Shown in pieces: positions 11,817 to 28,309 of a stretch of 64,000 nt of DNA. This DNA comes from the human T2T-CHM13v2.0 reference genome, Homo sapiens: NCBI RefSeq assembly GCF_009914755.1, contig NC_060925.1, one strand, 5' to 3'. How positions within the stretch are numbered: position 1 is the first letter of the stretch; each line of letters starts with the position of its first letter. A model generated the notes under the pieces. It was not told the DNA's origin. It did no database searches and was given only the letters and a program-made list of their open reading frames with translations. The position numbers were made by a program, and so were the translations under genes.

Positions 11817-11887
11817 GCACTGGTGGTTCAGTGGTAGAATTCTCGCCTCACACGCGGGAGACCCGGGTTCAATTCCCGGTCAAGGCA
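11817..11887 (+). tRNA. tRNA-Gly(CCC) body with CAC (Val) anticodon; probable pseudogene
   Basis: GCACTGGTGGTTCAGTGGTAGAATTCTCGCCTCACACGCGGGAGACCCGGGTTCAATTCCCGGTCAAGGCA. Anticodon CAC at 11849-11851, two acceptor-stem mismatches, T7 terminator downstream. Confidence 0.92.
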
Positions 11888-18441: not shown

Positions 18442-19120
18442 GTGTAGATCAATGCCCACGCACTTGGCCGACGGAAATCACGAATTGGTGACCAATTGGA
18501 TCTTGGATCTGAGGAAAAAGCTCCAGCTTCAGAGGGAACTCTCGAAGTTTTGCCCAGAGCAAACGGAGGGGTTGCGTTGCCATCGCCTAAAATGGGAAAA
18601 TGGCAGGCGTCACAGGTTGCAGGGGAAGGTTGGAGACCAGTTGAGTGCCCCGGAGCCTTCCTGGAAAGAGTTTCCTATCCAGCCCGCCTCGGTTTCCGCA
18701 TCCGTCTGATTCCTTATGATGTTGAGGGTGCCGGGGTCTGGGTCCTTTATGATGCAGAGGGTGCCCCCGTCTCACCTCGGGCGCCTCCCCGCTCCCGCCT
18801 CCTCCTGGCAACCTGGTGGGCGGCTCCGGACCCGGCGACCCGCGACCATCTTGTCAGTTGCTGCCGCCTGGCAAAGGGCATCTCTAGGCCAGTGGTGAGC
18901 TGCGGCCGCGTGGCCGCAACTCGCTCCAGTACTCAGGACTCCCTCGTGGAGCCCTTGGTGTGTCGCCTGCAGGTTCTTTTTTTGAAGAAAGCAGGGAGTG
19001 AACGGCCTTGTGAGACGACTCCAGGAGCAAAGGGAGACTCTCACAAGACCCAAGTCCTCCTAGAGCACAGGAAAGTGTCGCTTCAGGTCGAAGAAGGGAG
19101 AGAAAGCAGCTTTCCGCATC

Positions 19121-19192
19121 TGCATGGTTGTCTAGTGGCTAGGATTCGGTGCTGAAAGCGCCACGGCCCGGGTTCGATTCCCGGTCAGGGAA
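19121..19192 (+). tRNA. tRNA-Glu(TTC) body with GAA (Phe) anticodon; probable pseudogene
   Basis: TGCATGGTTGTCTAGTGGCTAGGATTCGGTGCTGAAAGCGCCACGGCCCGGGTTCGATTCCCGGTCAGGGAA. Loop CTGAAAG, GAA at 19154-19156, intact B box, T4 at 19196. Confidence 0.92.
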
Positions 19193-20163
19193 TTGTTTTG
19201 CACTGGCCGCCCTCCCGCAGAAATCTTCCTTTACCACGCTGTCAGCCGGCCTGCTCCAAGGGCCAGATGTAGAACAGCCTCCGCAGCGAGGGGCAAACCC
19301 GGGCAAAGGAGGGCAAGTCGTGGTGGGCCACCTCTCACGTTTATCTCCGTGTCTGTCATCCGCAGAAGCGGCTTTAGAGAGCGACTGAGCGTCTCGCTCA
19401 GGTGTACACAGCCGTGCAGAGGCCAGTCCCCGTGGAGCTGCACTTAATAAGCGCACCCTCTTTGCCGTCGCCGCCCCAGAGGTGCCTATCGGGCTGAGCT
19501 TGTGAATAACTAAGAGAGAGGCCAAGCCAAGTCATGGCGTTTGTGCGTGCCCTGGACATGGGCACCGGTCAGTCAGCGGAGCCTCCTCACCTCCGTTCGC
19601 AGCTAACATGCTCGTTAGGCCTTCGGAAGAGGCGACCGGAGGCGATGCCCGCGAAGTTGGGAGGGGAGTGAGCCGCGGGTGAGGTCCTCAAGGGCGGTCC
19701 CTTTTGCTGATTGAGCGGTAGAGGGAGGCGATGTTCGCTGACCCAACAAAGACAGCAGGTGGAGTAGGCACAAACGGAAAACTGTTGCCGGTGCCCTAAG
19801 CAGAATGCAGGTGTAAAAATTAGCACTAGGACGTCAAAGCGATGGTACCACAGTCAAATCCCACAATGTCTACACTCTACCAAGCACTTGCGCACGCTCC
19901 CCCTTTTCCATTCAGTATTCCCAAGAGGGGTTTGGAAGAACCCCGCGTCCACTGTAAGCTCAGGGGAGAGCGGGAGCCAGGGAGGTGAAGTGCACAGACT
20001 GGACAGAGGCGGCGGGCAGAACCGCGGGGGTGAGAGGGCGCGTGGTTGCGGGGCGGGAGCCACTGCTGAAAGGCGGCCTGGGTTGTCGTGTGGGGTGACT
20101 GTCGGTGGAATCTTTGGCAGAGAGTGGTTTGGAAGAATGGCGAGGGGGGCAGTGGGTAGGGTG

Positions 20164-20227: not shown

Positions 20228-20377
20228 CCACTTACCTGGCAGGAAAGAGACCGTGGTCACGAAGGGGGTTCTCCCAGAGTGAAGCTTCTTCATCGCACTC
20301 TAGAGTTGCTGATCTCTGTGATTTCTTCAATGTGGGAAACGGTGTTTGTGCTAGAAGAGGGCTGCGCTCTCTACCTA
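20228..20377 (+). ncRNA. Diverged U1 snRNA variant / pseudogene (RNVU1 or RNU1-P type)
   Basis: acttacctggcagg..ccgtggtcacgaagg..catcgcactc..tgctgatc..aatgtgggaaac..tttgtg..gctgcgct is colinear with U1; short deletion before the Sm site. Confidence 0.9.
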
Positions 20378-21290: not shown

Positions 21291-21972
21291 CCCCGATTTT
21301 TTTTTAATGTAAAAACATTTATGCGATTTTTACGTGTTTATTCTTGGGCAGCTACAGGTTCTTGTGATTTTCCCTCACGTCTTCTCCAGTCCATTCTGAT
21401 ACGTGTCCCATCTTCTCTGCATCCAGCCGGTGCCCTCTGCACCGGCATCCTGGGCTGTCCCATTGTCTCGTCCTGGTCTCCCCTGCTTCTTCTCCCTCCT
21501 TCTTTTCAGGTTTTCCCTTTTGACTCCCCTGCCTCTTTCCCGCTCCCGCCCCACCAACCCCATCTACTGAAGCCGAGTTGAGTGAGGGGATAGCAAGCGG
21601 AGTAGATGATTGCCTGAAGGCGGCGCAAAAAAACAGAAAGAGCTACCTACCATGAGAGCCGTCGGGGCGTTCAGCTTCCCTTGGGCCCTACTAGGCTCAG
21701 GCTGGGGTCGCAGATCCAGGCATTTCCAGAGGCACTGGCTTCTGAAGGAGGCGAGGGTTAATGGAGGGTGAAGGCCATTCGGCCGCCCTTCTGGTTTCAG
21801 AGTCAGGCAATGCAAGCGTTTCTAACGTGCAACAACACGATTAGTCGACTCAGCCTCTCCGGTTTTCCGAAGCTTTGTAGTCTGCACAGTTGTCCTGCAG
21901 AAAGCGAATGGCAACCCCTAGAGTTTAGTGATTGCTTAATCTATGTTGAGATGAAAGCGACCAACTGAGGTT

Positions 21973-22046
21973 ATCTCCGTGGAGCAATTGGTTAGCGCGT
22001 TCGGCTGTTAACCGGAAAGTTGGTGGTTCGAGCCTACCCAGGGACG
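21973..22046 (+). tRNA. tRNA-Asn(GTT) variant, probably impaired
   Basis: ATCTCCGTGGAGCAATTGGTTAGCGCGTTCGGCTGTTAACCGGAAAGTTGGTGGTTCGAGCCTACCCAGGGACG. A1-C72 and C6-A67 mismatches; T4 follows. Confidence 0.92.
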
Positions 22047-22070
22047 TGCTTTTAAATGTTGGTTAGTTGT

Positions 22071-27557: not shown

Positions 27558-27673
27558 ATCTCTAGATCAGTTTTGACTTGTGCATCTGGCGGGCTTCGTG
27601 AGCATTGCAGACAGGTTCACCTTTTGGAGAAACCTTTGGAAGGCAAGAGGAATGAAAAGTGCTTGCTGTTGTT

Positions 27674-27746
27674 TCCGTGGTGGTCTAGTGGCTAGGATTC
27701 GGCGCTTTCACCGCCTGCAGCTCGAGTTCGATTCCTGGTCAGGGAA
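27674..27746 (+). tRNA. tRNA-Glu(TTC) variant
   Basis: TCCGTGGTGGTCTAGTGGCTAGGATTCGGCGCTTTCACCGCCTGCAGCTCGAGTTCGATTCCTGGTCAGGGAA. TTC at 27707-27709; 1-nt insertion and a G4 mismatch. Confidence 0.92.
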
Positions 27747-28309
27747 TACATGCTTTGTAAGGTCTCCAAAAGCGGGCGACCTTAGCCCTTGTTACTGGAA
27801 CTTGCGATGTGCCCCAAAGCCCACTGCAGGAGAGTTTCTGTAGTCTTGGGTGCCAGAAAACTCTGGTGAAGAAGGGGAGTTAATGGCGACCCTCTCCCTG
27901 TTTCTCATGCTCCTGACCGAAAATCTTGTTACCTACTCTTTTCTCCCTTGGGCACCCTAGCACTCCTGTTCTTTTCATATCTCCATTTCTCATACAGCAG
28001 TACTGACTTCAGAGGTCGACTAAGCAGCTTGCTCAAGGTTATACAGCCATGCATTGATCCACACCTGGGTGGGGCTCCTGCCCTATTTGCTGGGTTGCCA
28101 TTACTGACAGAATGAGATCTGCATCTGGTAATGGCTTCTTGCTGCTTTCAGAGTAACTCTCCCACAGATAACGACTATAAACTAGAAAAATTTATTTCAT
28201 ATATATATTATATAATTTGAAGGTGCTGGAAGACTGAACAAAAGCAGGCGGACATATGGAAGAATGGCAGGTAGTGAGTATCCCATTTTGCAAACTTTCA
28301 GCAGAGGGC

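What the first reader, a model, noticed from the sequence alone, without database searches (positions are those of the whole stretch)
19121..19192. Anticodon loop apparently flipped by a hairpin micro-inversion: tRNA-Glu(TTC) body now reads GAA (Phe)
Seen: the body is Glu-TTC but the loop is CTGAAAG. The Glu paralog at 27674 has CTTTCAC, whose reverse complement is GTGAAAG. The observed loop needs 4 substitutions from the forward loop but only 1 from the inverted loop. 19153-19162 (tgaaagcgcc) is the exact reverse complement of 27701-27710 (ggcgctttca). It also differs from the real human Phe loop CTGAAGA, so it was not copied from a Phe gene. Inference: template switching within the anticodon stem palindrome inverted the loop and changed all three anticodon bases in one step. 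Acceptor mismatches (G2-G71, A4-G69) make charging unlikely. The locus may already be catalogued as a low-score Phe tRNA; the mechanism is the new point.
Basis: partly seen in the sequence, partly recalled or inferred. Interest (0 to 1): 0.85.

Follow-up and report, generated by a model that had tools for sequence, protein, structure and literature searches.

The report
Flipped anticodon loop in tRNA pseudogene
A dead copy of a human glutamate tRNA gene had the middle of its anticodon hairpin copied backwards from the opposite strand in what looks like one replication slip, which turned TTC into GAA; the mutation mechanism is well known, but seeing it rewrite a whole anticodon is a neat and apparently unreported example.

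Summary
Window 19121-19192 is a tRNA-Glu(TTC)-type body with the loop CTGAAAG.

The T2T genome holds four near-identical segmental-duplication copies on chr1, and all four carry this loop. All 8 paralogs with homologous flanks keep CTTTCAC.

On the branch leading to the four copies, four transversions fall within 5 bases. The derived TGAAAGCGCC is the exact reverse complement of the ancestral GGCGCTTTCA in place. Of the 81 possible four-base replacements at those sites, only the observed one gives an 11-nt inverted source.

A one-sided template switch of the inverted-spacer type (type 3-1-2-4, Löytynoja & Goldman 2017) needs no extra substitution. It also creates a new C32-G38 pair.

The product is a pseudogene:
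- It has two acceptor-stem mismatches.
- It scores 28.7 bits on the Rfam tRNA model, against 56.2 for an intact paralog.
- Its arm is predicted to close into a GAA triloop.

The mechanism is established for human DNA, rRNA and miRNA hairpins, and my searches found no tRNA anticodon case in print. I class it as a new member of a known kind, of moderate interest. Ape and monkey orthologs could not be examined.

The parts
19121..19192 (+). tRNA-Glu(TTC)-derived pseudogene that nominally reads GAA
   Evidence: ARAGORN calls it tRNA-Phe(GAA). It scores 28.7 bits on the Rfam tRNA model, under the 29-bit gathering score. It matches Glu-TTC genes at 90% over positions 5-72. Its flanks are homologous to those of intact Glu-TTC genes.
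19147..19163 (+). Anticodon arm, CGGTG CTGAAAG CGCCA (inferred ancestral form CGGCG CTTTCAC CGCCG)
   Evidence: As RNA it is predicted to form a 6-bp stem with a GAA triloop at -8.3 kcal/mol. The ancestral-type arm forms 5 bp with a 7-nt loop at -6.2 kcal/mol.
19153..19162 (+). Tract TGAAAGCGCC, equal to the reverse complement of the ancestral 19148-19157 (GGCGCTTTCA): the footprint of the template switch
   Evidence: 10 nt, holds all 4 differences. (11 nt on the ancestral background; unique among the 81 alternatives).
19154..19158 (+). The four derived changes T>G, T>A, C>A (19154-19156) and C>G (19158). 19157 (A37) is unchanged under either reading.
   Evidence: Polarised with 5 sister and 3 outgroup paralogs.
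19150..19150 (+). C30>T, a CpG transition in the 5' stem, separate from the inversion
   Evidence: Shared by all four copies.
19163..19163 (+). G43>A, a CpG transition in the 3' stem, separate from the inversion
   Evidence: Shared by all four copies.
19122..19129 (+). Acceptor-stem changes C2>G and C4>A, and G9>T. They give the G2.G71 and A4.G69 mismatches.
   Evidence: 19124 could not be polarised because the outgroups differ.
19171..19181 (+). Intact B-box-like GGTTCGATTCC. A TTTT run at 19196-19199 could act as a Pol III terminator.
   Evidence: Read. The consensus motifs are recalled, not tested here.
20228..20373 (+). U1 snRNA pseudogene 1.1 kb downstream, part of the same ancient tRNA-Glu + U1 unit
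   Evidence: Rfam U1 55.9 bits. U1-like matches sit at the same relative place in L035, L036 and L041.
27674..27746 (+). Glu-TTC pseudogene (TRE-TTC10-1) with the forward loop CTTTCAC.
   Evidence: 29.9 bits.

Best explanation
The locus is a non-functional copy of a tRNA-Glu(TTC) gene. It belongs to an old chr1 repeat unit made of a tRNA-Glu gene with a U1-like gene 1.1 kb downstream. The event happened after this copy split from the lineage of the intact Glu-TTC genes at chr1 15.98-16.68 Mb and before it was spread to four places by recent segmental duplication. A single replication template switch took place inside the anticodon hairpin. The growing strand left its template in the loop after position 32/33 and primed on the other strand through the 5-bp G+C stem. 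It copied positions 36 to 32 backwards (and possibly on into the stem), then returned within the 3' stem. This replaced TTCAC (34-38) by GAAAG in one step. TTC became GAA, the loop length was kept, and a new C32-G38 pair was made. The switch is of the 3-1-2-4 kind (inverted spacer) in the four-point model. Shown: the ancestral and derived states, the reverse-complement identity, the clustering, and that all four copies share the change. Inferred: that it was one event, its exact switch points, and that it arose in replication. The product does nothing as a tRNA. Its acceptor stem is broken, and the arm is predicted to close to a triloop.
For: (1) All 4 copies in the genome carry CTGAAAG, and their 3.9-kb flanks are 99.1-99.6% identical. 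(2) 8 of 8 flank-homologous paralogs outside this clade keep CTTTCAC. They are 5 at 91.3-91.5% identity and 3 old decayed ones. All 26 further Glu-type genes printed have forward loops, either CTTTCAC or CTCTCAC. (3) On the branch to the four copies there are 128 derived changes in 3610 polarisable sites. Four of them fall at 19154, 19155, 19156 and 19158 and all four are transversions. T>G and T>A are each only 2 of the 128. From that branch's own spectrum, the chance that four hits at these sites give exactly these bases is (2/17)(2/17)(11/51)(10/51), about 6e-4. This figure does not depend on the local mutation rate. (4) The derived TGAAAGCGCC equals the reverse complement of the ancestral GGCGCTTTCA in place. 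In 200,000 simulations that placed the branch's 128 changes at random over 3.85 kb, 21 gave any cluster of 4 or more differences with an inverted source of 10 nt or more. (5) Of the 81 possible replacements at the four sites, only the observed one gives an 11-nt inverted source. The next best is 7 nt, in 2 of 81. (6) The ancestral-type arm forms a stable DNA hairpin on both strands, at -5.5 and -7.0 kcal/mol. (7) Spacer inversions of exactly this type are documented in human-chimp comparisons (PMC5453318, passages read). Loop inversions are documented in rRNA and in MIR633 (PMC8794818, passages read). (8) The sister branch, used as a control, shows no cluster of 4 differences with an inverted source.
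Against: The ancestral state was inferred from paralogs in one genome, not from orthologs, so stepwise intermediates in other primates cannot be excluded directly. The branch is long, about 3.5% per site. The 30 bases around the 5' end of the gene are very diverged: 8 of the 13 bases just upstream differ from the sister clade. Local mutation was therefore not uniform, as the simulation assumes. A fully symmetric inversion would leave one mismatch at position 32. The one-sided version needs priming across a C.C mismatch two bases from the 3' end. A direct 6-nt copy of GAAAGC (19102-19107) also covers the four changes. No other inverted loop turned up in the three tRNA families scanned, so there is no second case to show the process recurs in tRNA genes.
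Confidence: 0.85

Rival explanations
1. Symmetric inversion of the whole 7-nt loop (CTTTCAC to GTGAAAG), followed by a separate G32>C substitution or by patchy repair of the heteroduplex.
For: The stem is a perfect 5-bp palindrome, so switch points inside the stem are the easiest to prime. Complete loop inversions are the form described for rRNA.
Against: It needs one more event, a transversion (G>C is 5 of 128 on this branch). The one-sided switch explains the loop with none, and also explains why positions 32 and 38 now pair.
Confidence: 0.1
2. Four independent point substitutions in a decaying pseudogene happen to mimic an inversion.
For: The branch is long (128 changes in 3610 sites). The gene's 5' end is strongly diverged. 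301 of 20,000 simulations gave 4 changes within 5 nt somewhere in the 3.85 kb.
Against: All four are transversions of the rarest classes. Given hits at these four sites, the chance of these exact bases is about 6e-4 (counts). Only 1 of 81 alternatives gives the inverted match. The three much more decayed paralogs still keep CTTTCAC.
Confidence: 0.02
3. One multi-base error (for example by a translesion polymerase), or a short direct copy of GAAAGC from the 5' flank 50 bases upstream, produced the cluster without any inversion.
For: GAAAGC at 19102-19107 matches the derived 19154-19159 in direct orientation over 6 nt.
Against: A 6-nt direct match is not exceptional: another of the 81 alternatives reaches 8 nt. 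The 11-nt inverted match is unique. There is no flanking homology around the 6-mer. An untemplated cluster would hit the inverted pattern in about 1 of 81 cases.
Confidence: 0.03
4. The loop is an assembly artefact, or was copied by gene conversion from a true Phe or other tRNA gene.
For: None was found here. The region is duplicated and hard to assemble.
Against: Four separately assembled copies share the loop, and each differs elsewhere. A pattern scan of the whole genome for the inverted loop in a Glu arm context found only these four. The 5 other hits carry one mismatch and hold no tRNA. Both stems flanking the changed tract remain Glu-type.
Confidence: 0.01

Closest known systems
Short template-switch mutations of the four-point model, type 3-1-2-4 (Löytynoja & Goldman 2017, PMC5453318; passages read)
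   Same: A cluster of nearby differences is explained by one reverse-complement copy of adjacent sequence. There is a pre-existing inverted repeat, the spacer is inverted, the length is kept, and the repeat becomes longer (C32-G38).
   Different: Those events were found in unique human-chimp sequence. This one lies in a segmental duplication, is older than the duplication, and hits a tRNA gene's anticodon.
Loop inversions in RNA hairpins by template switching: rRNA loops and MIR633 in the baboon lineage (Mönttinen & Löytynoja 2022, PMC8794818; passages read)
   Same: The loop of an RNA-gene hairpin is inverted with the stem kept. Asymmetric 'loop to stem' variants are also described there.
   Different: The paper reports 69 loop-only inversions in rRNA, mostly 4-nt and partly self-complementary loops. 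It gives no tRNA case; 'tRNA' occurs only in its reference list. Here a 7-nt loop changes its decoding triplet.
tRNA anticodon shifts and alloacceptor remolding (Rogers & Griffiths-Jones 2014, PMC3923123, passages read; Velandia-Huerto et al. 2016, PMC4981973, passages read)
   Same: A tRNA gene whose body belongs to one isotype and whose anticodon belongs to another. Flank synteny is used to show the common origin.
   Different: The passages I read describe shifts by anticodon substitution in genes that score as functional, and pseudogenes were excluded. Here three anticodon bases change in one event, and the gene is dead. No Glu/Phe shift appears in the main text of PMC3923123. Its tables and supplements were not seen.
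Minute hairpin inversions in chloroplast non-coding DNA (recalled: Kelchner & Wendel 1996; only a listing of plastome papers was seen)
   Same: Flip of a hairpin loop between short inverted repeats.
   Different: Organellar spacers, often recurrent flip-flop, with no change of a coding or decoding element.

Membership tests
Template-switch mutation (four-point model, inverted spacer) | Cluster of two or more differences within 10 bp relative to the ancestral sequence | tested here: met
   4 derived changes within 5 bp at 19154-19158.
Template-switch mutation (four-point model, inverted spacer) | The derived segment equals the reverse complement of nearby ancestral sequence, with length kept | tested here: met
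   10 nt in the present sequence and 11 nt on the ancestral background, unique among 81 alternatives. The loop stays 7 nt.
Template-switch mutation (four-point model, inverted spacer) | A pre-existing inverted repeat that can prime the switch | tested here: met
   The ancestral-type arm is a 5-bp G+C stem. DNA hairpin -5.5 kcal/mol on the sense strand and -7.0 on the antisense strand.
Template-switch mutation (four-point model, inverted spacer) | A single step: no intermediates along the orthologous lineage | not testable with these tools
   No primate genomes are held. The genome has no paralog between 99% and 91.5% flank identity.
tRNA-Glu(TTC) gene family | Body and flanks homologous to Glu-TTC genes | tested here: met
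   63 of 72 positions equal the intact chr1 16.5 Mb gene (read). Flanks are 91.5% identical over 3.9 kb.
tRNA-Glu(TTC) gene family | Anticodon TTC and an intact cloverleaf (a working gene) | tested here: not met
   The anticodon reads GAA. There are two acceptor mismatches. Rfam gives 28.7 bits against 56.2 for the intact paralog.
tRNA-Phe(GAA) gene family | Anticodon GAA | tested here: met
   ARAGORN call. This is nominal only, because the arm is predicted to close into a triloop.
tRNA-Phe(GAA) gene family | Body related to Phe tRNA genes | tested here: not met
   All genome matches to the 72-nt body that were read (30 loci) are Glu-type genes. No human Phe gene was in hand for a direct alignment.
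Functional alloacceptor anticodon shift (tRNA remolding) | The shifted gene remains a working, expressed tRNA | tested here: inconclusive
   The structure argues against it. Expression and charging cannot be tested here.

The most novel reading that the evidence does not exclude
Template switching inside the anticodon hairpin may be a general, overlooked one-step route by which tRNA genes jump to the reverse-complement anticodon (TTC to GAA, CTT to AAG, GCC to GGC and so on). Most tRNAs have U33 and A37, so an inverted loop keeps both and still looks like an anticodon loop. On this reading some 'isotype-mismatch' tRNA genes in catalogues, some alloacceptor remoldings (notably in mitochondria), and perhaps the old observation that tRNAs with complementary anticodons resemble each other (recalled: Rodin and Ohno) would stem from such flips. 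A few of them would yield working tRNAs.
Probability: 0.15. Interest if true: 0.7.

Novelty: new member of a known kind. Interest (0 to 1): 0.45.

Why it matters
The locus shows that one ordinary replication error can rewrite all three anticodon bases to their reverse complement while leaving U33, A37 and the stem in place. That is a jump between distant codon boxes which point mutation would reach only through three steps. Here it happened in, or made, a dead gene, so there is no consequence for human translation. It does give a concrete search image for catalogue-wide scans: body of isotype X, loop equal to the reverse complement of X's loop. It also warns that anticodon-based naming of low-scoring tRNA predictions can mislead, as with the 'Phe-GAA' call here.

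Tried and rejected
- Inverted-loop members of other families: pattern scans for Val-CAC and Asn-GTT arms with an inverted loop found 0 matches at up to 2 mismatches. The Glu scan found only the four known copies, plus 5 one-mismatch hits that hold no tRNA.
- I fetched 40 of the 63 top Rfam tRNA hits to widen the scan and to obtain a Phe gene. They were Lys, Cys, Thr, Arg, Ala and Ser genes, none Phe. I did not run more patterns, so the scan covers 3 families only.
- A source for the strongly diverged 5' flank (19107-19125) was sought on both strands of the window, and nothing came within 3 mismatches.
- A possible second template switch at 19109-19114 (GCTTTC from GAAAGC at 19102-19107) has only 6 nt and 3 differences, which is too weak to claim.
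- The catalogue name of the locus was not found. A search for tRNA-Phe-GAA-7 to -12 gave one unrelated paper, and one search gave nothing useful.
- Literature on anticodon inversion: no paper holds both 'template switch mutation' and 'anticodon'. 'anticodon' + 'small inversion' + 'hairpin' gave 5 plastome papers. Searches gave no tRNA case either. These searches cover only the held CC-licensed PMC papers and bioRxiv.
- My first fold of the paralog arm used wrong coordinates (rows for L036) and is disregarded. It was repeated correctly.

Full report
WHAT IS THERE. Window 19121-19192 (+) reads TGCATGG TT GTCT AGTGGCTA GGAT T CGGTG CTGAAAG CGCCA CGGC CCGGG TTCGATT CCCGG TCAGGGA A. ARAGORN calls it tRNA-Phe(GAA), and calls the paralog at 27673-27747 tRNA-Glu(TTC). 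On the Rfam tRNA model it scores 28.7 bits, just under the gathering score of 29. An intact flank-homologous Glu-TTC gene scores 56.2 bits.
- the loop CTGAAAG;
- the paralog loop CTTTCAC;
- the exact reverse-complement relation of 19153-19162 to 27701-27710;
- the G2.G71 and A4.G69 mismatches.

None of the 40 high-scoring human tRNA genes I fetched was a Phe gene.

COPIES AND RELATIVES IN THE SAME GENOME. A search of the window's own assembly with the 72 bases gave 40 scored matches. Four match over the full length at 99-100%: chr1 121018927 (-), 142864829 (-), 144293121 (+, the window) and 148825470 (-). All four carry CTGAAAG. Two have one further private change in the 3' stem. Over 3.9 kb the four are 99.1-99.6% identical. 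The neighbouring Glu pseudogene lies about 8.55 kb away in at least three of them (coordinates). They are therefore copies made by recent segmental duplication. The hub's table places SRGAP2B and FAM72D just upstream. That these belong to human-specific duplications is recalled, not tested.

A search with 872 bases around the gene found eight more loci with homologous flanks. Five lie at chr1 15.98-16.68 Mb (L035-L039), and the three I compared are 91.3-91.5% identical to the window copy over 3.9 kb. Three old decayed ones lie at 142.72, 146.64 and 147.73 Mb (L040-L042, 60-74% identical). All 8 of these 8 keep CTTTCAC, even the most decayed. The 26 further Glu-type genes printed (5 TTC, 21 CTC) also have forward loops. 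The search tool scores only its best candidates, so the copy counts are lower bounds.

POLARITY AND CLUSTERING. The five 1p36 copies served as sister group and the three decayed copies as outgroup. Of 3847 aligned sites, 3610 could be polarised. There are 128 changes on the branch to the four copies, 114 on the sister branch and 62 ambiguous. On the four-copy branch the tRNA carries these changes:
- C2>G, G9>T, C30>T and G43>A; the last two are CpG transitions;
- the four loop changes T34>G, T35>A, C36>A and C38>G, at 19154, 19155, 19156 and 19158;
- C4>A, which is ambiguous because the outgroups differ.

The D arm (19130-19147) and everything 3' of position 43 are unchanged. All four loop changes are transversions. 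T>G and T>A are each 2 of the 128 changes on the branch, these two included.

IS IT MORE THAN CHANCE? I ran three tests.
- (a) Random placement of the branch's 128 changes. 4 or more changes within 5 nt appeared somewhere in the 3.85 kb in 301 of 20,000 runs. A cluster of 4 or more differences that also has an inverted source of 10 nt or more within 60 nt appeared in 21 of 200,000 runs.
- (b) A test independent of the local rate. Given one hit at each of the four sites, the branch's own spectrum gives (2/17)(2/17)(11/51)(10/51), about 6e-4, for exactly these bases (arithmetic on the counts).
- (c) Exhaustive enumeration. Of the 81 possible four-base replacements at these sites on the ancestral background, only the observed GAAG yields an 11-nt reverse-complement source. 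The next best is 7 nt, in 2 of 81. A direct 6-nt match to GAAAGC at 19102-19107 is not exceptional, since another combination reaches 8 nt.

The sister branch, used as a control, has no 4-difference cluster with an inverted source; its best is 7 nt with 3 differences. The simulation assumes a uniform rate, which is not true here: the 200-nt bin that holds the gene is the most diverged, at 15% against 3-13% elsewhere. Tests (b) and (c) do not depend on that assumption.

MECHANISM. The inferred ancestral arm is CGGCG CTTTCAC CGCCG. A one-sided switch gives CGGCG CT GAAAG CGCCG, which is exactly the observed loop. In that switch the growing strand keeps positions up to 33 and then copies the other strand backwards from 36 to 32 and on into the stem. 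The two CpG transitions in the stem came as separate changes.

In the four-point model the switch points fall in the order 3 (27-31), 1 (32/33), 2 (36/37), 4 (39-44). That is type 3-1-2-4, which the authors illustrate as an inverted repeat separated by an inverted spacer. They argue it needs an inter-strand switch (PMC5453318, passages read).

The event lengthened the inverted repeat by one pair (C32-G38), which is the usual signature of such switches. The ancestral-type arm folds as a DNA hairpin on either strand, at -5.5 and -7.0 kcal/mol. The details remain inferred: one-sided or symmetric, which strand was nascent, and whether the donor was the locus itself or an inverted paralog with the same arm.

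CONSEQUENCE. The present arm is predicted as RNA to form a 6-bp stem with a GAA triloop (-8.3 kcal/mol; 0 of 200 shuffles fold as well). The intact paralog forms a 5-bp stem with a 7-nt loop. With the two acceptor mismatches and the sub-threshold model score, the locus is best read as a pseudogene, and 'Phe' is a name only. A B-box-like GGTTCGATTCC (19171-19181) and a TTTT run (19196-19199) remain, so transcription cannot be excluded. Whether the flip killed a working gene or struck one already dead cannot be told.

TIMING. The event lies between two points. The earlier one is the split from the 1p36 lineage, at about 8.5% divergence, of which 3.5% falls on this branch. The later one is the spread of the four copies, which differ by at most 0.9%.

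HOW NEW? Template-switch inversion of hairpin spacers is established for human DNA and for rRNA and miRNA hairpins, including 69 loop-only inversions and MIR633. Papers on tRNA anticodon shifts treat substitutions in genes that score as functional, and the passages I read name no Glu/Phe case. Their tables and supplements were not seen.

I found no paper that joins template switching with an anticodon. No paper holds 'template switch mutation' together with 'anticodon'. The 5 papers with 'anticodon', 'small inversion' and 'hairpin' are all on plastomes. Searches gave no case either. These searches cover only the held open-access library.

In the human genome the inverted loop is rare. In three families scanned (Glu, Val-CAC, Asn-GTT), only these four copies of one event were found.

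VERDICT. The locus is a new member of a known kind of mutation, in a dead gene, and is of moderate interest as a clean illustration and as a search image for wider scans.

Noticed in passing
window 19102-19124: The stretch just upstream of the tRNA and its first bases is far more diverged on the four-copy branch than the rest. 8 of the 13 bases before the gene differ from the sister clade, and C2>G and C4>A add to that. The changes create GAAAGC-A-GCTTTC, a new 6-nt inverted repeat (19102-19107 / 19109-19114). It may be a second small template switch or simply the high mutation rate of tRNA flanks. At 6 nt and 3 differences it is too weak to call.
   Followed up: partly
window 21972-22047: ARAGORN finds a tRNA-Asn(GTT), and Rfam scores it 39.5 bits, above the gathering score. 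It is not in the RefSeq table supplied with the finding.
   Followed up: no
window 20228-20373; L035 717-860; L036 3042-3185; L041 712-879: A U1-like sequence lies about 1.1 kb downstream of the Glu gene in the window, in the 1p36 paralogs and in an old decayed paralog. All score 52-56 bits, under the U1 gathering score of 69.5. The tRNA-Glu + U1-like pair is therefore an old repeat unit.
   Followed up: partly
window coordinates 19603-19609 of the alignment (change is in L035-L039, not in the window): On the sister (1p36) branch a cluster of 3 or more differences, CGAAGGC, equals the reverse complement of the ancestral GCCTTCG 10 nt downstream (7 nt). It is a weak candidate for another template switch.
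   Followed up: no
window 11817-11887: The second annotated tRNA-Val(CAC) shows two non-standard pairs in its acceptor stem in the Rfam alignment, although it scores 53.4 bits.
   Followed up: no
L033 (chr1 142.86 Mb copy) and L034 (chr1 121.02 Mb copy): Two of the four copies carry one private change each in the 3' anticodon stem, C39>A and C41>T. This shows the copies are separately assembled and still decaying.
   Followed up: yes
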